10,539 nt of DNA, from positions 1 to 10,539 of the IMG/VR virus record IMGVR_UViG_3300002461_000783. The stretch is one strand, 5' to 3'. Origin of the DNA: a virus. The position numbers and the translations under genes are program-made. The notes below the pieces were generated by a model that was not told where the DNA came from, searched no databases, and saw only the letters and a program-made list of their open reading frames with translations. Below are positions 1 to 10,539 of the stretch, in pieces. Position 1 is the stretch's first letter. Every line of letters starts with the position of its first letter.

Positions 1-94
1 TGCAGCCGATACCGGCCGGCGCGCTCAGAATCCGGCGCTTTTTGCGGATTTCCGCCGGCCGGCCGGTCAACCGATTTTGCGATCATACCGAGAG
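1..94. repeat. Left copy of the exact 94-bp direct terminal overlap (circular-assembly redundancy); carries the first 28 codons of rep on the minus strand (ATG at 84-86)
   Basis: Letter-for-letter identical to 10446-10539. The overlap cuts through the rep ORF, so it is not a biological terminal repeat. Confidence 0.95.
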
Positions 95-2772: not shown

Positions 2773-2965
2773 AGACTTCCTTGACGCCGTCTTGCCGGGT
2801 GCGCGCCCAGCCATCGAGCACCGGATCGTAAACAAAGCCAGGCGGCGCGCTGTTGGCATACCGAAAATAACCCTGCAGCGTCGATTCCGATCGCCGCGAC
2901 CACTTGACCAGGAAGTAAGCCAGCGCACCAGCGCCGACCATAATCACCACATCATCGAGCTTCAT
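2765..2965 (-). CDS. Small membrane protein (66 aa), N-terminal TM; holin-like position directly after the lysozyme
   Basis: ATG at 2963-2965 forms an ATGA overlap with the lysozyme stop. TM segment is VVIMVGAGALAYFLV. Confidence 0.65.
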   Translation of the reverse strand: MKLDDVVIMVGAGALAYFLVKWSRRSESTLQGYFRYANSAPPGFVYDPVLDGWARTRQDGVKEVYV

Positions 2966-3675
2966 GCATACCCCCCGCCGGTTGAACTGAACAGCGCGAC
3001 TTCAGACGCGCGCCGATTGACCAGGCCTTGCACCACCTGGCCGCCCGCTCGGCGCCACAGCGGCAGCTGAGCAGCAGCGCCGGCATAGTCGCCGGCATTC
3101 AACAGCCGCAGCAGCGTCGAGCGGCGGAACGCGCCCACCCCGACGTTATAAACGAACGACACCAGCGCATCGAATTGCGGCTGTGTCAATGGCACCTTGA
3201 CCAGGCTATTGACAGCATCTTCGGCGATGCCGACATCCTGCGCGAGAAGGGAAGAAGCCTGCGCCTCAGTGATGCTATCCCACCACTCGCCAGGCTTCAG
3301 CAGATGGCCATAACCAATGGTCCACAGCCCGGCGGAATCCTTGTAAGGGTTGAGCTTCAGCCCTTCCCACTGCTTCAGGTGAGCCAGACCAGCAAGAGAC
3401 AGCACCATGCGACCCCCCCACACACCGGAAAAAAAGTTTTCAGCGCGATACACCACCGGCAGCAGCGCATCCCCCACGGCATCGAGCGCACCCACTTCGT
3501 ATTCATCCGGCGATGCCCAGGCACCGCCACCATCAGCACCGCGCGTCCAGTCGAACTGGTAGGCCGGATGATCGGCAGGCACCCCGCCCTGCTCCGCGCG
3601 CGACCGCAGCGCGAAGTAAAGCCCGACGCCAGCGCCGACGATCACCACAGCGGCCGCTGCAGCGCGCGCGCTCAC
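2962..3675 (-). CDS. Membrane-anchored GH24 (T4/lambda-type) lysozyme, 237 aa
   Basis: LKQWEGLKLNPYKDSAGLWTIGYGH carries the canonical E-x8-D-x5-T triad (E104, D113, T119; the E104 codon is at 3364-3366). The N-terminal TM is AAAAAVVIVGAGVGLYFAL, followed by a ~65-aa linker before the catalytic domain. The GTG start forms a GTGA overlap with the upstream stop. Confidence 0.9.
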   Translation of the reverse strand: MSARAAAAAVVIVGAGVGLYFALRSRAEQGGVPADHPAYQFDWTRGADGGGAWASPDEYEVGALDAVGDALLPVVYRAENFFSGVWGGRMVLSLAGLAHLKQWEGLKLNPYKDSAGLWTIGYGHLLKPGEWWDSITEAQASSLLAQDVGIAEDAVNSLVKVPLTQPQFDALVSFVYNVGVGAFRRSTLLRLLNAGDYAGAAAQLPLWRRAGGQVVQGLVNRRASEVALFSSTGGGYA

Positions 3676-4145
3676 TTCGGCAGTTCCGACTTGACAGAGA
3701 CGCGCACCGCCTGCAGGGCATCAGCCGCATTAGACCGCCCTTCAATCGCGTATTCCCACAGCGCCACCACCAGGGCATCGACGGTCGCGCCGCGTTCAGC
3801 GTATTTAAGCGCGCGCAGTTGATCAACGGTCATTGCAGCCAGGCGCGCAGCTGCAGCCGCCGTATCAGCAGCAGCCACACGCGACGCGCGCGCAGCGAGC
3901 AGCTGGCCGACGTTGCCGATCACACCATCGAGCGCGGCCAGCGCCGCCGCATTCAGGCCGCTCGCGCGCTGATTGCCCGCCGCGTCGATGACACAATTCA
4001 TTAGACCAGGCGCATACACCAGGCCGGCAGCACCAGGCGCAGCCTGGCCGGCATCGAGCGCGAAATTCTGCGGCGTGTCGATGTAGACGCCGGCAGCGCC
4101 CTCGACAATGACCAAGCCATCATGGGATAGCTGGACGCGGTTCAT
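3672..4145 (-). CDS. Hypothetical Ala-rich protein (157 aa) coupled to the collar protein; possible spike stalk or assembly partner
   Basis: ATGA overlap at 4142-4145. It has a beta-like N-terminal half and an Ala-rich helical C-terminal half. I recognise no family. Confidence 0.7.
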   Translation of the reverse strand: MNRVQLSHDGLVIVEGAAGVYIDTPQNFALDAGQAAPGAAGLVYAPGLMNCVIDAAGNQRASGLNAAALAALDGVIGNVGQLLAARASRVAAADTAAAAARLAAMTVDQLRALKYAERGATVDALVVALWEYAIEGRSNAADALQAVRVSVKSELPK

Positions 4146-4621
4146 CGTTCGGCCTTGATGATGTAAAAGGCAACCGCGAACGGCTGCATGTTGTTATGCG
4201 CGGTGCCGCTGCCACCGTTGCCGGTTGTAGCGGAACCACCTTTGCCAGCAGCACCCACTGGACCATAGGTTGCGCCGCTATCTACGATGAACAAAGACGC
4301 GCTTCCTGGCGGGTGAGTGTGCACGCCGTTTTCACCGTCGGTCAGCGGATGGGTTTCAGCGCCACCCGTGCCGCCACGGCTGCGCGCCGTCAGCCCCGAT
4401 CCAGAGCCAGCGCCGAGCAGCGCGCGCCCGCGACAGTCGGGCAAGTTGAACGTGGTCGAGCCGTCCCCCGCGCCGTAAGCGGTGCCGACTTCGGCAAAAA
4501 GAGCGGCATACACGGTGCGCGACACCGCAGCGCCGTTGCAGTCGAGCCAGCCAGGCGGGACAGCAGCACCGCCCCATGCCTTGATGGAGCCGACGCGCTC
4601 AGATGCCGGAGCAAAAAACAT
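4142..4621 (-). CDS. Phage Tail Collar domain protein (MdpB/COG4675-like), 159 aa; candidate receptor-binding spike subunit
   Basis: GWLDCNGAAVSRTVYAALFAEVGTAYGAGDGSTTFNLPDCRGRALLGAG ... GVHTH ... HNNMQPFAVAFYIIKA is the classic Collar-domain signature (PF07484). ATG at 4619-4621 shares one nt with the upstream TGA. Confidence 0.88.
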   Translation of the reverse strand: MFFAPASERVGSIKAWGGAAVPPGWLDCNGAAVSRTVYAALFAEVGTAYGAGDGSTTFNLPDCRGRALLGAGSGSGLTARSRGGTGGAETHPLTDGENGVHTHPPGSASLFIVDSGATYGPVGAAGKGGSATTGNGGSGTAHNNMQPFAVAFYIIKAER

Positions 4622-5187
4622 CAGCCCTCGATCACATGCACGTTATTACCAGCCGACGCGCTGGATCGGATGCCACTGATTTCCCCGGTTGGAATAAAAC
4701 CCGGCTCCCAAACTCCACCGGCCGGAATCTCCAGGCAGGCCGCATCAGCGGTCGCAGCGGCGCCGTCACACCGCACCCACAGCGAAAGCGACGCGTGCGA
4801 ATTCTGGATCAGAACGTATTTCCTACCGGCATTTGCAGCCAGAATCTGCGCGCTTGTATTCGTGATGGCCTTCGCCGCCGGCGTATGCGCGCCAGTCGGG
4901 CCATTAGTAAGCGCCACCGCACCAGTCACACGATCAGCGCCCACTCGCCCCTGATAGACATCGAGAACGACGGTCTGAGCACCCGGCGCAGTGACGCGCA
5001 CCTCATCGAACCCGCCTTCAGGGTTGGCGTAGTAACCACTCGAAGCCGAGCGCAGATTTTCAGCGAGCAATTTGCCGCCGCGATAAAAATCAACGTTAAC
5101 CAGGGACGCCGACTCCAGTCTAAAAAAATCTCCCCGCGCGTAGTAAGCTTTAACCTGCCCAGCGGTGAACGGCTCATTGATTCGCAT
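4621..5187 (-). CDS. Beta-rich structural protein (188 aa); candidate penton/vertex base
   Basis: ATG at 5185-5187 is preceded by AGGGG about 8 nt upstream. It has no TM and is rich in beta-strand-type sequence. It sits directly upstream of the collar protein and is coupled to it. The functional call is inferred from position. Confidence 0.75.
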   Translation of the reverse strand: MRINEPFTAGQVKAYYARGDFFRLESASLVNVDFYRGGKLLAENLRSASSGYYANPEGGFDEVRVTAPGAQTVVLDVYQGRVGADRVTGAVALTNGPTGAHTPAAKAITNTSAQILAANAGRKYVLIQNSHASLSLWVRCDGAAATADAACLEIPAGGVWEPGFIPTGEISGIRSSASAGNNVHVIEG

Positions 5188-5190
5188 CGG

Positions 5191-5673
5191 TCAACCCCTA
5201 AAAGACTTCACGGCCACGATGGCAACCGCAGCGATCACGCCATAGGCCACCAGGCGCTTTGCATCGCCCTCACCCTTTGCGTTGTCGTATGCCGTGGCGA
5301 CGATGGCGCCCGACGCCTTTACGATATCGGCATTTTTGTCGAGCACCTGGAAGGACTTGTCGAACACACGATCAACCAGGCCGAGCAGCTGCTGCGCGCT
5401 CTGGCCCTGCAGGGCATCGCCGGCCTTCAGCAGATCAATGCCGGCGCGCGCGAACTCGAAGGACTGAGTAATCGCGCCGTTGTCCAGCGCGGTGACGTTG
5501 ACCGTCGAACTGTCCGAACTAATGCCGATGCCCTGGTCAACGACCAGGCGCTTGTCGATATTCTGAGTCGTGGTCTCATTGGAAGAACTAGACCCGCCGC
5601 CGCCGCCGTTACACGGCGCCCGCTTCGATCCTGGCTGAACACCCCAGCCGCAGCCGATGGGCTCCATCATCAC
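5191..5673 (-). CDS. Membrane-anchored protein (160 aa), C-terminal TM and a Gly/Ser-rich N-terminal region
   Basis: The GTG/ATG/ATG start cluster at 5665-5673 overlaps the upstream TGA. The C-terminal TM is LVAYGVIAAVAIVAV. Confidence 0.7.
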   Translation of the reverse strand: MMMEPIGCGWGVQPGSKRAPCNGGGGGSSSSNETTTQNIDKRLVVDQGIGISSDSSTVNVTALDNGAITQSFEFARAGIDLLKAGDALQGQSAQQLLGLVDRVFDKSFQVLDKNADIVKASGAIVATAYDNAKGEGDAKRLVAYGVIAAVAIVAVKSFRG

Positions 5674-6134
5674 GCAGCCACCTTGCCGAGGACCACACCG
5701 CGCGGCGAGTAGCCCAGGCGCGCGAACGCCTGGACAACAGACCGGCGCGCCGACATGACTCGAAACGAAGACACACCTCTAAACTGGCGCTCAAGCGCGG
5801 CGATCAACGCAGGAAAGCGGCTTCGAGCGAACGGCAACCGGCCCGCAGCCGCGTCGATCACCCCTTCAGCGCCCAGCTCGCGCACCTCGACGCGCAACAC
5901 TACACAGCCCAGCACTTCGCCATCATGGTCGATCACGTCGAACAGCACGGACCGTCCAGACGCAACGTCACAGCGCAGGCTTTCAGCGGTCATCATCGGA
6001 TCGGCGACCAGGGCGCGCGCCAGCCGCTCAGCGTGCGACGGCAGCCAGGCAGAGGGGCGCAGCGTCAGGCTTTTTTCTTGATCCACACGATCCCCGCGAG
6101 AGTGAGAGCAACGACACCGGTAGCCAGCAGCCAC
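5670..6134 (-). CDS. Hypothetical protein with GNAT-like (acetyltransferase-fold) sequence topology; start uncertain
   Basis: The ORF-track start is GTG at 6134, which gives a 70-nt overlap with the upstream gene. Alternatives are GTG at 6084-6086 (GGGGA 4 nt upstream) and ATG at 5994-5996. The pattern LTLRP...(helix)...VIDHDGEVLGCVVLRVE...GVIDAAAG...ALIAALERQF..FRVMS..SVVQAFARLGYSPRG resembles the GNAT beta1-alpha-beta2-4-alpha3-beta5-alpha4-beta6 order. The glycine-rich CoA loop is not evident. Confidence 0.55.
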   Translation of the reverse strand: MAAGYRCRCSHSRGDRVDQEKSLTLRPSAWLPSHAERLARALVADPMMTAESLRCDVASGRSVLFDVIDHDGEVLGCVVLRVEVRELGAEGVIDAAAGRLPFARSRFPALIAALERQFRGVSSFRVMSARRSVVQAFARLGYSPRGVVLGKVAA

Positions 6135-6689: not shown

Positions 6690-7496
6690 CTAGTTGTTAA
6701 CGAGCGGATCCAGCAGCTCCATCACCACCGTCACATTGCCAGCACCGCTTACAGTGACATACCACTCATGAGTGTTGGCGTTTGCGGCATTGTGGACATT
6801 GCTGAGATTGCCGTCCTCGATGAAGTCGATGCATACGCAGTTGGCTTGCGGGGTGCGCTGATACTCGCCGAGCACGAAGTCATTCAGCGCATCATTGCGG
6901 TTCCAGACCTCGATGCCGTTTTTCTTCACGCGCGCGGCAGTGACCGTCGAGCCAAAAAAGTGCGCGCGCTTGATGAACGACCCAGCCTGTTTGCCGAACG
7001 GAATGTCCACGGGGAATTCGCCAGCGGCGCCGAAGTTCTGCGTGTAGCTAAGCACCTTGGCGATCAGGCCGCTGTAGCTAGGATCATTCTGCGGCGCAGC
7101 CGACACCTGGGCGATAGCCGACAGCGTCGGCGAAGTCGCGCCGCCGATATCAATCTCGACATTCAGATCACGAATGCCGCTGCTGACGGTATCCAGGCAG
7201 CCGACCTTTTGACCCTGAATCGTTCGGGCGCGGATTTCCGCAAAGTCGAGCACCAGGTAAGCAGCGGCGGCAGTGATGCCACGGTGCTGCATACGAGTGT
7301 CGATGCGGGAGCCGGTGTCTTCGACAATGGTCTTGCCGTTCGCCTGCACCTTCACGTTGGTAATTTGCGCCTTGGTGAACGTGCCACCCAAGGTGTAAAT
7401 CACGCGGTCTATGGTGTAGCCGAGCAGGTTGTTCCATTTGCCGCTGGCTTTGCTGTTCGCGGCGACGCCGGCCAGCGGATTGACAACGATATCCAT
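6690..7496 (-). CDS. Major capsid protein, corticovirus P2-like (predicted double jelly-roll), 268 aa
   Basis: The protein is beta-rich with no TM. Its size is essentially that of PM2 P2 (~269 aa). It lies between the packaging ATPase block and the small membrane proteins. Local strings (PTLSAIAQ, ITNVKVQANGK, CIDFIEDGN) resemble my unverified recollection of PM2 P2. SD AAGGGA lies upstream of ATG 7494-7496. Confidence 0.8.
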   Translation of the reverse strand: MDIVVNPLAGVAANSKASGKWNNLLGYTIDRVIYTLGGTFTKAQITNVKVQANGKTIVEDTGSRIDTRMQHRGITAAAAYLVLDFAEIRARTIQGQKVGCLDTVSSGIRDLNVEIDIGGATSPTLSAIAQVSAAPQNDPSYSGLIAKVLSYTQNFGAAGEFPVDIPFGKQAGSFIKRAHFFGSTVTAARVKKNGIEVWNRNDALNDFVLGEYQRTPQANCVCIDFIEDGNLSNVHNAANANTHEWYVTVSGAGNVTVVMELLDPLVNN

Positions 7497-7738: not shown

Positions 7739-8386
7739 TCAGGAAATTGCCCGCGTCAGGTCTTTGAGCGAAACGCCTTCGGCCGTCAGATCACCTGTAA
7801 CAAGGTTCTTGACCAGCCACTGACGCGGCCGCAGCTGCCGCAGCAGATTAATGTTCACGTCGATGGCATCGGCCACCGCTTTTTTATCGCCAGCACTCGA
7901 CAGTTTGCCGACGCGGATCATGGTGCAGTTTGAAAAAAACGTCTTATCGAGCAACGCCGGCCGCTGCGACGTGCCGACCACCATCAGCCCGTAATGACGT
8001 CCACCGGTGACCACTTCAAGCCAGCCAGGCGGCGAGTATCCGGCCTTTGTCACTAAGGCCAATTCCTCGATGACCAGCATCACATCGCGCACCGCCAGCG
8101 CCGCGCGGCAGAACACGGCGAACTGTTCACGCATCCGCAGCTCCGTGGACTTGTCCGGCTGGTAGACCAGGGCGAAGCGACCGCGCCCGACCTTGCGCAG
8201 CTCCGCCACCAGGTCAGCCGTGCGGCCCTTGATGACCTTGCCGACGTGGCCATATTCGCGCATCGCATCCCACACCATCAGGCGCGGCGGTTTCGTGGCC
8301 AGCACCTGTTTGACGAAGTGAGATTTACCCGAACCGGTCGAGCCGATCACCGCGACGAACGCGGCCTGGTTGTCTGAACCTTTCAC
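7739..8386 (-). CDS. Genome-packaging ATPase, FtsK/HerA-superfamily P9-like (215 aa)
   Basis: Walker A is GSTGSGKS (8321-8344). A Walker B-like VMLVIEE is present, followed downstream by GGRHYGLMVVGTSQRP. The small size and the position next to the capsid gene match the ATPases of membrane-containing tailless phages. The GTG start forms a GTGA overlap. Confidence 0.85.
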   Translation of the reverse strand: MKGSDNQAAFVAVIGSTGSGKSHFVKQVLATKPPRLMVWDAMREYGHVGKVIKGRTADLVAELRKVGRGRFALVYQPDKSTELRMREQFAVFCRAALAVRDVMLVIEELALVTKAGYSPPGWLEVVTGGRHYGLMVVGTSQRPALLDKTFFSNCTMIRVGKLSSAGDKKAVADAIDVNINLLRQLRPRQWLVKNLVTGDLTAEGVSLKDLTRAIS

Positions 8387-9170: not shown

Positions 9171-9339
9171 CGTTCACCCCTTCCAGTTTTTCGATGCGCT
9201 GGATCAGCTCATCGATGATCGTTACCGCATCGGCCAGCGCAGCGCGCGCATCATGCGGCACAAAACCCACCGCCAGCGGATTGGCCAGAAGCCGCGCCGT
9301 CGCAGTTTTCAAGTTCTTCATACGTTCGTTCGTCGTCAT
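9160..9339 (-). CDS. Small helical protein (59 aa), overlapping the rep 3' end; internal part of ORF-track entry 9160-9564
   Basis: ATG at 9337-9339 is preceded by AAGGG about 9 nt upstream. Product: MTTNERMKNLKTATARLLANPLAVGFVPHDARAALADAVTIIDELIQRIEKLEGVNDGR. Over the 9251-9339 overlap, hand-counted GC3 is 19/29 in this frame against 13/29 in the rep frame. Upstream of 9339 this frame is Arg/Cys-rich junk. Confidence 0.55.
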   Translation of the reverse strand: MTTNERMKNLKTATARLLANPLAVGFVPHDARAALADAVTIIDELIQRIEKLEGVNDGR

Positions 9340-10531
9340 CAGGCGGCCCTTTGTCTGGTGGGCGTTCCTGTTCCATCTGCCGCAGCGCGAGCAGAACGCC
9401 CTGCACCCCCGCCGCGCCTTCACGTTCAGCCCACAGCAGCACCTGATACCGCGCGCGATGGCGCAGCACCAATGCCCAATCGTCTTTGGTAAGCGTGGCG
9501 ACGGTTTCGAACTCCGGCGCGTTCGCCTGCTGTTCCAGGATTTCATCGTCTGCCGCTTCGTCATCGAGGCCCAGACGCGCGCGCAGCCCTGGCGACCATG
9601 TCAGCTGCCGGCGACCTTTAAAGGCCCAGTAGAATTCCCGGAACAGCTGCGCGGCTTGCTGGTCACCTTTTCCCACCGCCACCAGCAGCGTGAACGGCGT
9701 CGAGCCGCGCATGGAATGGGAAACCTTGCTCTGCCCCTTCACCATTTCCCGCGCTGCGCCCCAGGTAGCGCCGGCATCAAGCTTCGCCTTGAATGACGGT
9801 TCATGCCCGAACTTGGCGACATACTCCGCAGCGAAATCACCGCCGCGCACATCGAAGGAATGCGCGTTGATATCGTTCAGCTGGTCCGCGCCGGCCGCGC
9901 CGGTTTTCAGCAGCGCCGACACCCAGGCCGCGCGCAGCTGTTCGAACAGCGGCAGCTGGTCCGGCTGGGCAAAAATCAGAATGTGAAAGTGAGGATGCCA
10001 GCCATGCCAGCTGCCCCAGGTGCATTCCAGGGCGCGAATCGTGCCGATGGCGCCGGCCGCCGTCATCACCGAGCGCCACGCCTTCGACTGCTTCAGCCGC
10101 TGCGACGTGGCCGCTGCCACCTTCAGCAGACCGGACAAATTGTCCGCCCTCACATGCGGCAGCGTCAGCGTCATCAGGTAGACCGCCCCGCCCTGCTTCG
10201 CCCAGGCTTCGATTGCCCGCTGCAGATCGTGGCGGCGTTCCTCCGTGATGATGCCGCTGCAGATCGGGCAGGCCCAGACGTTCGAACAGCTTTCCAGCCC
10301 GCCGAATACCGCTTTGTTCCTGGCATGATCGACGCGCACCTGCACCGTGCCGACCGTTCGCCATCGATGGCAGGTGCAGACCCGTTCTTGCTTTTTGCCG
10401 ACCTCGCCCCTGGCCGGTTCAAACATCAGGTTGGACGCGACCCGCTGCAGCCGATACCGGCCGGCGCGCTCAGAATCCGGCGCTTTTTGCGGATTTCCGC
10501 CGGCCGGCCGGTCAACCGATTTTGCGATCAT
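9251..10531 (-). CDS. rep: Rolling-circle replication initiator, HUH superfamily (Rep_1/pC194-phage type), 426 aa
   Basis: Motif I is YLMTLTLP. Motif II is WHPHFHILIF (H181-F-H183 at 9983-9991). Motif III is AAEYVAKF (Y237 at 9821-9823, Y-x-x-K). An N-terminal Cys cluster reads VCTCH...SCSNVWACPIC. ATG is at 10529-10531. The last ~30 codons have low GC3 and overlap the 59-aa ORF. Confidence 0.92.
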   Translation of the reverse strand: MIAKSVDRPAGGNPQKAPDSERAGRYRLQRVASNLMFEPARGEVGKKQERVCTCHRWRTVGTVQVRVDHARNKAVFGGLESCSNVWACPICSGIITEERRHDLQRAIEAWAKQGGAVYLMTLTLPHVRADNLSGLLKVAAATSQRLKQSKAWRSVMTAAGAIGTIRALECTWGSWHGWHPHFHILIFAQPDQLPLFEQLRAAWVSALLKTGAAGADQLNDINAHSFDVRGGDFAAEYVAKFGHEPSFKAKLDAGATWGAAREMVKGQSKVSHSMRGSTPFTLLVAVGKGDQQAAQLFREFYWAFKGRRQLTWSPGLRARLGLDDEAADDEILEQQANAPEFETVATLTKDDWALVLRHRARYQVLLWAEREGAAGVQGVLLALRQMEQERPPDKGPPDDDERTYEELENCDGAASGQSAGGGFCAA

Positions 10532-10539
10532 ACCGAGAG
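10446..10539. repeat. Right copy of the exact 94-bp direct terminal overlap
   Basis: Identical to 1-94. Confidence 0.95.

What the first reader, a model, noticed from the sequence alone, without database searches (positions are those of the whole stretch)
3672..5187. Tailed-phage Tail-Collar domain recruited into the spike module of a tailless membrane phage
Three translationally coupled genes (188, 159 and 157 aa; TGATG and ATGA junctions) follow the membrane-protein block. The 159-aa product is essentially a bare Phage Tail Collar domain (GWLDCNGAAVSRTVYAALFAEVGTAYGAGDGSTTFNLPDCRGR ... HNNMQPF). This module is known from tailed-phage fibres and MdpB-like proteins and is not expected in an icosahedral tailless virus. 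The arrangement suggests a split vertex complex. The 188-aa beta protein would be a penton-like base, the collar protein an exchangeable receptor-binding subunit, and the Ala-rich 157-aa protein a stalk or chaperone. That would imply module exchange between Caudoviricetes fibres and a DJR-lineage virus.
Basis: partly seen in the sequence, partly recalled or inferred. Interest (0 to 1): 0.6.

Follow-up and report, generated by a model that had tools for sequence, protein, structure and literature searches.

The report
Tail-fibre tip cassette in PM2-like phage
A complete 10.5-kb tailless, membrane-containing (PM2-like) phage genome has a shortened vertex spike gene followed by a swappable two-gene cassette whose first gene is the tip of a tailed-phage tail fibre; the pattern is real and instructive, but such "fiber" genes were already listed in published tables for this virus order.

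Summary
The three coupled minus-strand genes exist as described. The 159-aa product is a strong Phage Tail Collar protein (PF07484, E=3.5e-23). The window is a complete PM2-like genome (order Vinavirales).

- The 188-aa protein is a short homologue of the PM2 vertex spike P1. It sits in the P1 position, and P1 is the best structural match of its predicted model. It is 188 aa against 335 aa for P1.
- The collar gene and the 157-aa gene form one exchangeable cassette, window 3683-4607. A close relative carries a different fibre-tip gene plus a small partner gene at exactly that place.
- In 15 related elements the slot after the short spike gene always holds another small gene or gene pair. Eight slots hold a collar protein. 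Partner genes in three collar slots match tail-fibre-assembly families.
- The collar protein is 53-55% identical to the last ~150 residues of long fibre proteins, one of them on a contig with a portal and a tailed-phage-type head protein.

The role of the 157-aa protein (chaperone or adaptor) is inferred from position only.

The claim that this is unexpected does not hold. Yutin et al. 2022 already tabulate pfam07484 "fiber" genes in Vinavirales, including betaproteobacterial prophages. I class it as a new member of a known kind, of moderate interest.

The parts
4621..5187 (-). 188-aa short homologue of the PM2 vertex spike P1, with two beta domains (residues 1-82 and 97-188)
   Evidence: AF2 model from a 96-sequence alignment has mean pLDDT 94.2. 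The best Foldseek match is PM2 virion chain 2w0c_L, E=5.1e-5. VIA-align gives 2vve_B (P1 stem and receptor-binding domain) Z=10.0, rmsd 2.1, 83 residues for 97-188; 2w0c_L Z=9.3 over 165 residues; and a 124-residue chain of the PR772 virion, 6q5u_O, Z=7.3 for 1-84. The gene sits where P1 sits in PM2, between the gp j/P10-position gene and the lysin. It co-occurs with the P2-type capsid gene in all related loci. The family has 687 representative clusters at E<=1e-3.
4142..4621 (-). 159-aa stand-alone tail-fibre tip protein: Tail Collar domain, HxH motif and HNNMQP C-terminal motif
   Evidence: PF07484 E=3.5e-23. PHROG tail families down to E=1.9e-29. PDB sequence relatives are a long tail fibre (8kec, E=1e-7) and the T4 short tail fibre gp12 (1pdi, 1ocy). 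It is 53-55% identical over 146-152 residues to the C-termini of 304-639-aa fibre proteins on other viral contigs.
4421..4591 (-). Pfam Collar domain proper (residues 11-67 of the 159-aa protein)
   Evidence: residues 11-67 match profile positions 1-56 of 57.
4313..4321 (-). H101-T-H103 (HxH) motif of the collar protein
   Evidence: Read from the sequence. An HxH motif is kept in 6 of 8 collar proteins of related elements and is multiplied in L008. That it binds a metal on a three-fold axis, as in T4 fibres, is inferred from established knowledge of gp12/gp37 and was not tested.
4607..4621 (-). Codons 1-5 (MFFAP) of the collar gene; they lie outside the swapped cassette and are a candidate N-terminal docking peptide
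   Evidence: Homology to L003 continues through these 14 nt and then stops. The unrelated 138-aa L003 protein starts with the same five residues. MFFAP is invariant in 10 of the 12 closest collar homologues while the next residues vary. L007 and L008 have SYFAP. The docking function is inferred.
3672..4145 (-). 157-aa Ala-rich partner protein: small N-terminal beta unit, poorly modelled loop 40-62, helical bundle 66-154
   Evidence: Only 6 homologues at 48-100% identity in 5.8 billion proteins. It is always next to a type-A collar gene (L006, L007, L008). The AF2 model has mean pLDDT 78. No PDB match reaches Z>=5. The best BFVD hit is a DUF4376 protein at E=0.035. There is no Pfam or PHROG hit.
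3683..4607 (-). Exchangeable two-gene cassette (collar gene from codon 6, and the 157-aa gene except its last codons)
   Evidence: In blastn of the window against L003, homology runs through the spike gene to 14 nt inside the collar gene. It is then absent and resumes 10 nt before the stop of the 157-aa gene. L006 is collinear throughout.
5191..5673 (-). 160-aa protein in the PM2 gp j/P10 position, with a C-terminal hydrophobic segment; upstream neighbour
   Evidence: Position relative to PM2 and to the gene order of Yutin 2022. Maximum hydropathy 1.83. Conserved in L003, L004, L035 and L041.
2962..3675 (-). 237-aa lysozyme with an N-terminal hydrophobic segment; downstream neighbour coupled by GTGA
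   Evidence: PF00959 E=2.3e-49; junction.
6690..7496 (-). 268-aa PM2-type double jelly-roll major capsid protein, which defines the virus type
   Evidence: Pfam P2_N E=2.6e-24 and P2_C E=1.3e-40.

Best explanation
The three genes encode the host-recognition apparatus of a PM2-like (Vinavirales) virion, built from separate parts.

The 188-aa protein is a shortened P1 spike. Its N-terminal jelly-roll domain would fill the five-fold vertices as a pentamer (inferred). A conserved second beta domain would project outward (inferred).

The 159-aa protein is the distal tip module of a tailed-phage tail fibre made as a free-standing protein. It has a collar domain, an HxH motif and an HNNMQP end. By analogy with T4 gp12/gp37 it probably forms a metal-stabilised trimer that binds a cell-surface saccharide (inferred). 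It would attach to the short spike through its invariant five-residue N-terminus (MFFAP), through the 157-aa protein, or both (inferred). That would give a penton-plus-separate-fibre vertex like those of adenovirus, FLiP or PRD1.

The 157-aa protein is the cognate partner of this tip type. It sits where other cassettes in the same slot carry a tail-fibre-assembly chaperone, so it most likely helps the tip fold or assemble and may stay bound as an adaptor (inferred).

The tip gene and partner gene move as one recombination cassette between conserved flanks. This lets the virus lineage change receptor specificity without touching the capsid genes (cassette shown; host-range effect inferred).
For: Virus type: P2_N/P2_C capsid, ATPase, Rep_1 and a complete record with a terminal repeat.

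Spike:
- The AF2 model has pLDDT 94.
- PM2 P1 is the top match in Foldseek (E=5.1e-5) and in an independent all-against-all structural search (Z=10.0 and 9.3).
- The gene order matches PM2: gp j, P1, lysin.
- The gene accompanies the capsid gene in all 14 related loci.

Cassette:
- The breakpoints against L003 are exact.
- Of 15 loci, 8 have a collar gene after the spike gene (window, L006-L009, L038, L039, L041) and 7 have something else (L003, L004, L005, L035, L036, L037, L040).
- The L003 138-aa protein matches the C-termini of tail-fibre PHROGs (E=2.2e-9).
- The L040 protein carries Gly_rich_2 (PF21722, E=1.5e-8).
- The small genes after the L038, L039 and L041 collars match 'tail fiber assembly' PHROGs (phrog_105, E=1.3e-5, 3.7e-8 and 1.2e-3; L041 also phrog_35518 at 3e-5).

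Fibre-tip identity:
- 53-55% identity over ~150 residues to the C-terminal ends of 304-639-aa proteins.
- One of these, L123, lies beside a portal-like protein and a major head protein.
- PDB relatives are tail fibres.

Structural-gene context: translational coupling inside the late operon and no membrane segments.

Precedent: 'fiber' pfam07484 genes are listed after P1_spike in Yutin 2022. A separate-spike swapping model was proposed for double jelly-roll viruses in PMC9719478.
Against: - No direct evidence places the 159-aa or 157-aa protein in a virion.
- The collar protein has only about 9 residues before the collar domain. It has no shaft and no recognisable attachment domain.
- Conservation of MFFAP could reflect where recombination happens or the needs of translational re-initiation, not docking.
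- The second domain of the 188-aa protein also occurs at the C-terminal (normally distal) end of long fibre-like proteins in tailed-phage contigs. The short spike might therefore bind receptors itself.
- Sequence-profile comparison of the 188-aa family with PM2 P1 is not significant (hhalign E=0.13). The P1 Z-scores are only 1-2 units above unrelated jelly-roll and cupin folds.
- The 157-aa protein matches no tail-fibre-assembly family.
- Oligomeric states and complexes could not be modelled with the tools at hand.
Confidence: 0.68

Rival explanations
1. The 188-aa protein is the complete receptor-binding spike on its own. The collar protein and its partner are an auxiliary or second adhesin, or a virion-associated factor used on some hosts only, as PRD1 carries two different vertex proteins. 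They are not the main receptor binder docked on the spike.
For: The second domain of the 188-aa protein matches the 'stem and receptor binding domain' crystal structure of P1 (Z=10.0). Homologues of that domain end long fibre-like proteins in tailed-phage contigs, where the C-terminus is usually the distal end. PRD1/PR772 precedent for two vertex proteins is cited in PMC9719478.
Against: The second domain is the more conserved half of the protein: mean identity to the window is 41.5% against 31.4% for the N-terminal domain. That is unusual for a receptor-binding tip. The variable element in the lineage is the downstream cassette, not this domain. All 15 loci have at least one extra gene between the spike and lysin genes.
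Confidence: 0.17
2. The collar gene and the 157-aa gene are a non-structural accessory cassette (a moron). It would be a cell-surface or secreted MdpB-like protein pair expressed for the lysogen or during infection, for example for exclusion or cell-cell interaction, and it would not be part of the particle.
For: Short stand-alone collar proteins named 'microcystin-dependent protein' by their sources are very common. There were 3204 hits at E<=1e-3, several on contigs of 120-420 kb that are probably chromosomes. PM2 itself has no such genes. The cassette is a separately exchangeable unit.
Against: The genes are translationally coupled in the middle of the late structural operon, between the spike and lysin genes. 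Neither protein has a signal peptide-like or membrane segment. The same slot in relatives holds other tail-fibre tip modules with tail-fibre-assembly-like partners, which points to a virion role. The closest non-Vinavirales relatives found are the ends of real fibre proteins.
Confidence: 0.1
3. The 157-aa protein is the structural stalk or adaptor that joins a pentameric spike to a trimeric tip and is a stoichiometric virion component. It is not a chaperone.
For: Its model has a long helical region (66-154, pLDDT above 90) and a small N-terminal beta unit. In L008 the helical part is lengthened by a duplicated Ala-rich repeat, and the collar protein of the same genome is lengthened by extra HxH repeats. 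It matches no tail-fibre-assembly family.
Against: The length co-variation rests on one genome. Other cassettes in the slot have 61-88-aa partners, three of them with tail-fibre-assembly matches. The collar protein in L009 works with an unrelated 79-aa partner.
Confidence: 0.3

Closest known systems
'fiber' (pfam07484) genes next to P1_spike in Vinavirales (pro)phages, Yutin et al. 2022, Viruses 14:1842 (PMC9502842), including betaproteobacterial clade D
   Same: The virus order and gene order are the same: ATPase, MCP, P3, P8, GNAT, P10, P1_spike, fiber, lysin. The paper also lists short (145-180 aa) proteins with the Phage Tail Collar domain. Relatives of the window occur in betaproteobacterial MAGs, including Ramlibacter.
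   Different: The paper lists these genes only in a figure legend and in tables, without analysis. The clade D examples I could read (WIXJ01000002_17, VOQU01000005_26) are of the RGEFLRG...RNVA subtype, which I found in L038, L039 and L041. The window carries the HxH/HNNMQP subtype with a 157-aa partner that has only six homologues. The cassette boundaries and the chaperone-like partners are shown here, not there.
Spike protein P1 of Pseudoalteromonas phage PM2 (PDB 2w0c, 2vve)
   Same: It is the best structural match for both domains of the 188-aa protein, and the gene position is the same.
   Different: P1 has 335 residues and carries its own receptor-binding part. In PM2 the lysin gene follows directly. 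The window's protein has 188 residues and is followed by two extra genes. Sequence-profile similarity is not significant. Which P1 domain the second domain corresponds to is unresolved.
Tail-fibre tips of tailed phages: T4 short tail fibre gp12 (1ocy, 1pdi), a long tail fibre (8kec), and fibre proteins on IMG/VR contigs such as L123
   Same: They share the collar domain, the HxH motif and the C-terminal HNNMQP-type end. Identity to metagenomic fibre ends is 53-55% over ~150 residues.
   Different: In tailed phages the module is the C-terminal end of a long shafted protein anchored in a baseplate or tail. Here it is a free 159-aa protein in a virus that has no tail.
Penton base plus separate fibre or spike vertices of adenovirus, FLiP and PRD1/PR772, and the 'spike swapping' model (De Colibus et al. 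2022, PMC9719478)
   Same: The proposed way of working is the same: a conserved vertex protein with a separately encoded, more easily exchanged receptor binder.
   Different: This is a functional analogy only. No homology of the fibre parts was shown, and the architecture here is inferred from genes, not seen in a structure.
Tail-fibre tip plus tail-fibre-assembly (Tfa) chaperone gene pairs of P2/Mu/lambda-type phages
   Same: The layout is a two-gene unit with the tip first and a small partner directly downstream and translationally coupled, exchanged together. Partners in L038, L039 and L041 match tail-fibre-assembly PHROGs.
   Different: The window's 157-aa partner has no detectable similarity to these chaperones.

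Membership tests
Pfam PF07484 Phage Tail Collar domain | Match to the family profile above the curated gathering score | tested here: met
   81.8 bits against a cut-off of 24, E=3.5e-23, profile positions 1-56 of 57.
T4 gp12/gp37-type fibre tip (collar followed by a metal-binding HxH region) | HxH motif downstream of the collar domain | tested here: met
   H101-T-H103. Kept in 6 of 8 related collar proteins. The alignment to 8kec covers its HxH region.
T4 gp12/gp37-type fibre tip (collar followed by a metal-binding HxH region) | Homotrimer with a metal ion on the three-fold axis | not testable with these tools
PM2 P1-type vertex spike (P1_spike of Vinavirales) | Gene between the P10-position membrane protein gene and the lysin gene of the late operon | tested here: met
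   Comparison with the annotated PM2 record and with the published gene order.
PM2 P1-type vertex spike (P1_spike of Vinavirales) | N-terminal jelly-roll penton domain followed by further beta domains, similar in fold to P1 | tested here: met
   2w0c_L is Foldseek rank 1 at E=5.1e-5. VIA-align gives Z=9.3 over 165 residues and Z=10.0 for the second domain. The margin over unrelated folds is small.
PM2 P1-type vertex spike (P1_spike of Vinavirales) | Detectable sequence-profile similarity to PM2 P1 | tested here: inconclusive
   hhalign of the 96-sequence profile against the single P1 sequence gives E=0.13. The alignment is collinear: 5-163 against 5-154.
PM2 P1-type vertex spike (P1_spike of Vinavirales) | Full P1 length, including all of the 'stem and receptor binding' part | tested here: not met
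   188 residues in two domains against 335 residues in P1. Most family members are 185-200 aa.
PM2 P1-type vertex spike (P1_spike of Vinavirales) | Pentamer at the five-fold vertices of the virion | not testable with these tools
   This needs multimer modelling or a particle structure.
Order Vinavirales (PM2-like tailless membrane phages) | P2-type double jelly-roll major capsid protein, small packaging ATPase, and a ~10-kb circular genome with small membrane protein genes | tested here: met
   P2_N and P2_C. ATPase matches phrog_2666 at E=6.8e-30. The record has a terminal repeat. Hydrophobic small proteins follow the capsid gene.
Tail-fibre-assembly (Tfa) chaperones, considered for the 157-aa protein | Sequence match to a tail-fibre-assembly family | tested here: not met
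   No Pfam or PHROG hit for the protein or its seven relatives at useful E-values. The BFVD DUF4376 hit is E=0.035 only. The Atlas XkdW lead scores 0.86 only.
Tail-fibre-assembly (Tfa) chaperones, considered for the 157-aa protein | Encoded directly downstream of the fibre-tip gene and inherited with it | tested here: met
   ATGA overlap. Present with the type-A collar gene in L006, L007 and L008 and lost together with it in L003. Positional counterparts in L038, L039 and L041 match tail-fibre-assembly PHROGs.

The most novel reading that the evidence does not exclude
PM2-like phages of Betaproteobacteria build an adenovirus-like vertex. A pentamer of a truncated P1 would dock trimeric tail-fibre tip modules taken from, or shared with, tailed phages. 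Docking would use a five-residue N-terminal peptide (MFFAP) that is kept outside the recombination cassette, so that unrelated tips plug into the same spike. The second domain of the short spike and the collar tip may be an old partnership that also exists in tailed phages, where small proteins with that domain lie directly beside collar fibres (L148, L108).
Probability: 0.35. Interest if true: 0.55.

Novelty: new member of a known kind. Interest (0 to 1): 0.36.

Why it matters
Tailless membrane phages are common in water and soil bacteria, but how they choose hosts is almost unknown beyond PM2 and PRD1. This genome and its relatives show at sequence level that one lineage separates the capsid-anchoring part of the spike from the receptor-binding part. 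They also show that it exchanges the receptor-binding part as a two-gene cassette drawn from the same pool of fibre tips and chaperones that tailed phages use. That gives a concrete, testable case for the 'spike swapping' idea proposed for double jelly-roll viruses. It also suggests that host prediction for such prophages could borrow what is known about tailed-phage fibre tips. It is not a new principle, and the presence of collar 'fiber' genes in this order was already tabulated.

Tried and rejected
The genomic contexts of the database homologues could therefore not be read, including the NCBI 362-kb contig that carries both a spike homologue and a collar homologue. I used the search for related loci, the genome search and the fetch from genomes instead.
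- A single-protein scan of viral contigs with the capsid protein found nothing. The 96-sequence spike alignment was too diverse to make search patterns.
- A megablast of the whole window against deposited phage genomes found no match.
- For the 157-aa protein, Pfam and PHROGs on all eight family members gave only chance-level hits. The all-PDB structural search gave nothing at Z>=5. BFVD gave a best hit of E=0.035. The Atlas gave only unnamed phage clusters at 0.91 and an XkdW lead at 0.86. I do not claim a fold or family for it.
- Sequence-profile comparison of the spike family with PM2 P1 was not significant. Re-alignment with pdb_via added nothing to the first structural search. Whether the second domain equals the P1 stem or head is left open.
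- I considered that the collar proteins of tailless phages might be one clade with a single acquisition. The alignment shows two distinct subtypes, so I did not build a tree whose members' contexts I could not read.
- I considered that the viral contigs with the closest collar relatives might themselves be PM2-like. None of 159 such loci has a P2-type capsid hit, and only 4 have a hit to the spike family, all to its second domain only.
- Literature searches for 'corticovir*' with 'tail collar', and for 'tail collar domain' with 'non-tailed', returned nothing.
Full report
**What the window is.** The window is a whole virus record of 10,539 bases with a direct terminal repeat. I measured the repeat as 94 bases. 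Nearly all genes lie on the minus strand. The 268-aa protein at 6690-7496 matches both Pfam halves of the PM2 major capsid protein: P2_N at E=2.6e-24 and P2_C at E=1.3e-40. The 215-aa protein at 7739-8386 is a small packaging ATPase (phrog_2666, E=6.8e-30). The 426-aa protein at 9251-10531 is a Rep_1 rolling-circle initiator. The 237-aa protein at 2962-3675 is a phage lysozyme. This is a complete PM2-like genome of the order Vinavirales. No deposited phage genome is close at the DNA level.

**The observation.** The three ORFs, their lengths and their overlaps are as described. The junctions are TGATG between the 188-aa and 159-aa genes and ATGA between the 159-aa and 157-aa genes. A further GTGA overlap leads into the lysozyme gene. 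The 159-aa protein matches PF07484 over almost the whole profile, with 81.8 bits against a cut-off of 24 and E=3.5e-23. It also matches many PHROG tail and tail-fibre families. Its solved relatives by sequence are a long tail fibre (8kec) and the T4 short tail fibre gp12. None of the three proteins has a membrane-helix-like stretch, unlike the proteins encoded just upstream.

**The 188-aa protein.**
- A search of 1.84 billion representative proteins found 687 clusters at E<=1e-3. Most are 185-200 aa and match over the full length. A minority share only the first ~100-130 residues and continue differently.
- With 96 of these as an alignment, AlphaFold2 gave a model with mean pLDDT 94.2. It has two beta domains, residues 1-82 and 97-188.
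- Foldseek against the PDB ranked the P1 chain of the PM2 virion first (2w0c_L, E=5.1e-5), the only match below 1e-3.
- An independent alignment against 48,161 representative chains also put P1 on top. 2vve_B scored Z=10.0 (rmsd 2.1, 83 residues) for the second domain, and 2w0c_L scored Z=9.3 over 165 residues. A 124-residue chain of the PR772 virion scored Z=7.3 for the first domain.
- The margin over unrelated jelly-roll, GOLD and cupin folds is only 1-2 Z units. A profile-to-sequence comparison with PM2 P1 was not significant, at E=0.13, although it was collinear.
- Gene order strengthens the case. In PM2 the order is gp j (P10), P1, lysin. In the window the 188-aa gene sits between the P10-position gene and the cassette that precedes the lysin gene.
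- I conclude that it is a P1-type spike or penton protein. At 188 residues against 335 for P1 it lacks the equivalent of one P1 domain. I could not decide which one.

**The cassette.** I collected related elements with pattern scans and genome searches. All 14 carry a homologue of the 188-aa protein together with the P2-type capsid gene wherever the contig reaches that far.
- L006, L007 and L008 have the same trio as the window.
- L009 has a collar protein with an unrelated 79-aa partner.
- L038, L039 and L041 are prophages in genomes of the same order as a Ramlibacter MAG. They have collar proteins of a second subtype.
- L003 is a close relative, 62-76% identical in the flanking proteins. Between the spike and lysin genes it has a 138-aa and a 72-aa protein instead.
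- At the DNA level, homology between the window and L003 runs through the spike gene and 14 nt into the collar gene. It then disappears and returns 10 nt before the stop codon of the 157-aa gene. L006 is collinear throughout. The exchanged unit is therefore window 3683-4607, that is, both genes minus a few terminal codons.

**What fills the slot elsewhere.**
- The L003 138-aa protein matches the C-terminal ends of tail-fibre PHROGs (E=2.2e-9). Its 72-aa partner matches the N-terminal ~70 positions of two families that PHROGs labels tail fibre protein (E=3.9e-11).
- The partners of the L038, L039 and L041 collars match 'tail fiber assembly' families: phrog_105 at E=1.3e-5, 3.7e-8 and 1.2e-3, and for L041 also phrog_35518 at 3e-5.
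- The L040 protein has a Gly_rich_2 domain.
- The proteins in L004, L005, L035, L036 and L037 remain unidentified.
- In all 15 loci at least one gene separates the spike gene from the lysin gene.
- The slot therefore holds 'fibre tip plus small partner' pairs of several unrelated families.

**Where the collar protein comes from.**
- Its closest relatives (60-99% identity) are 153-162-aa proteins. Most are on contigs of about 9.6-11.5 kb, and one is on the same 362-kb NCBI contig as a spike homologue.
- Beyond those there is a continuum of thousands of short 'microcystin-dependent protein'-like sequences at about 50-57% identity.
- In IMG/VR the best matches outside PM2-like elements are the last ~150 residues of proteins of 304-639 aa, at 53-55% identity over 146-152 residues.
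- One of these contigs, L123, also encodes a portal-like protein and a major head protein of a tailed-phage family.
- None of 159 such loci has a P2-type capsid gene.
- The whole 159-aa protein therefore corresponds to the distal tip of tailed-phage fibres, not just the 57-residue Pfam domain. The direction and number of transfers are not established.
- The two collar subtypes among the PM2-like elements argue against a single event.

**How the tip might be held.** The collar protein has only about nine residues before the collar domain.
- Its first five residues, MFFAP, lie outside the swapped segment. The unrelated L003 protein shares them.
- They are invariant in 10 of the 12 closest homologues while the following residues vary.
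- L007 and L008, whose spike is only 46% identical, have SYFAP.
- This fits a short docking peptide, as in the adenovirus fibre tail. It could equally reflect where recombination occurs or the needs of coupled translation.
- The second spike domain is the better conserved half: 41.5% against 31.4% mean identity. That fits a docking platform better than a receptor-binding tip.

**The 157-aa protein.** It has six homologues in 5.8 billion proteins and no family match. The model has mean pLDDT 78, with a small N-terminal beta unit, a poorly modelled loop and a confident helical bundle at 66-154. No solved structure reaches Z 5. The best viral model hit is a DUF4376 protein at E=0.035. Its assignment as chaperone or adaptor rests on position, coupling and co-inheritance with the type-A collar gene, and on the tail-fibre-assembly matches of its positional counterparts.

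**What was already known.** Yutin et al. 2022 (PMC9502842) state that MCP, ATPase and a P1 homologue are present in each Vinavirales (pro)phage genome they show. They give the gene order used above. Their Figure 3 legend lists 'fiber, tail fiber protein homolog'. Their supplementary tables annotate 145-180-aa 'fiber' proteins with pfam07484, including contigs WIXJ01000002 and VOQU01000005 of betaproteobacterial clade D. The main text does not discuss them, and two targeted literature searches found nothing else. De Colibus et al. 2022 (PMC9719478) proposed that separately encoded spikes are swapped more easily in double jelly-roll viruses. New here are the exact cassette boundaries, the fibre-tip-plus-chaperone nature of the slot, the shortened P1, the conserved N-terminal peptide and this collar subtype with its rare partner.

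**Verdict.** The feature is real and the mechanistic reading is largely right in outline. I class it as a new member of a known kind. Virion location, oligomeric states and the mode of attachment are inferred, not shown.

**Limits.** I reproduced that number.

Noticed in passing
window 4621-4899 (residues 97-188 of the 188-aa protein); L015-L024; L010-L014: The second domain of the short spike (motif RKYLLIQN) also forms the C-terminal ~85 residues of long, repeat-rich fibre-like proteins on large viral contigs; L023 also encodes a portal. It occurs as a free 105-aa protein near a tailed-phage-type head gene in L010-L014. A P1-like domain is thus shared with tailed phages too.
   Followed up: partly
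L148:6462-6767 and L108:705-983: In two non-PM2-like viral contigs, a ~100-aa protein made only of the spike's second domain lies directly beside a collar-tipped fibre gene: after it in L148 and before it in L108. The pairing of this domain with collar tips may predate its use in tailless phages. Only 4 of 159 collar loci show the domain at all.
   Followed up: partly
L008:2695-3342 and L008:3339-3905: In one relative both partners are lengthened. The collar protein has three tandem HVHAHSAT repeats (215 aa). The 157-aa homologue has a duplicated Ala-rich helical repeat (188 aa). This is possible length matching of two proteins that lie side by side, seen in one genome only.
   Followed up: no
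L004:10357-11070; proteins P0176 and P0193: A non-collar 237-aa protein in the slot of L004 starts MPVIRKSP. Two collar proteins from the database start MPMIRNPS and MPVMRRAV. This may be a second class of shared N-terminal peptide. The spike types that go with them could not be read.
   Followed up: no
L035 and L036 (genome G162, contigs C1 and C14): One betaproteobacterial genome holds two related PM2-like prophages. Each has a short spike gene, a 135-aa protein in the slot, a 66-67-aa partner and a ~348-aa ORF. In L035 that ORF has a lysozyme domain; the L036 copy was not scanned.
   Followed up: partly
window 5670-6134: The 154-aa protein sits where Yutin et al. place a GNAT acetyltransferase in this virus order. 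It gave no Pfam or PHROG hit at the thresholds used. It is conserved in L003, L004, L035-L037 and L041.
   Followed up: no
window 1-94 and 10446-10539: An exact 94-base terminal repeat closes the record into a 10,445-bp circle. It falls inside the rep ORF (9251-10531), so it is likely assembly redundancy of a circular genome.
   Followed up: partly
window 2962-3675: The lysozyme has an N-terminal hydrophobic segment (maximum hydropathy 2.2) and about 100 residues before the catalytic domain. The Pfam match starts at residue 101.
   Followed up: no
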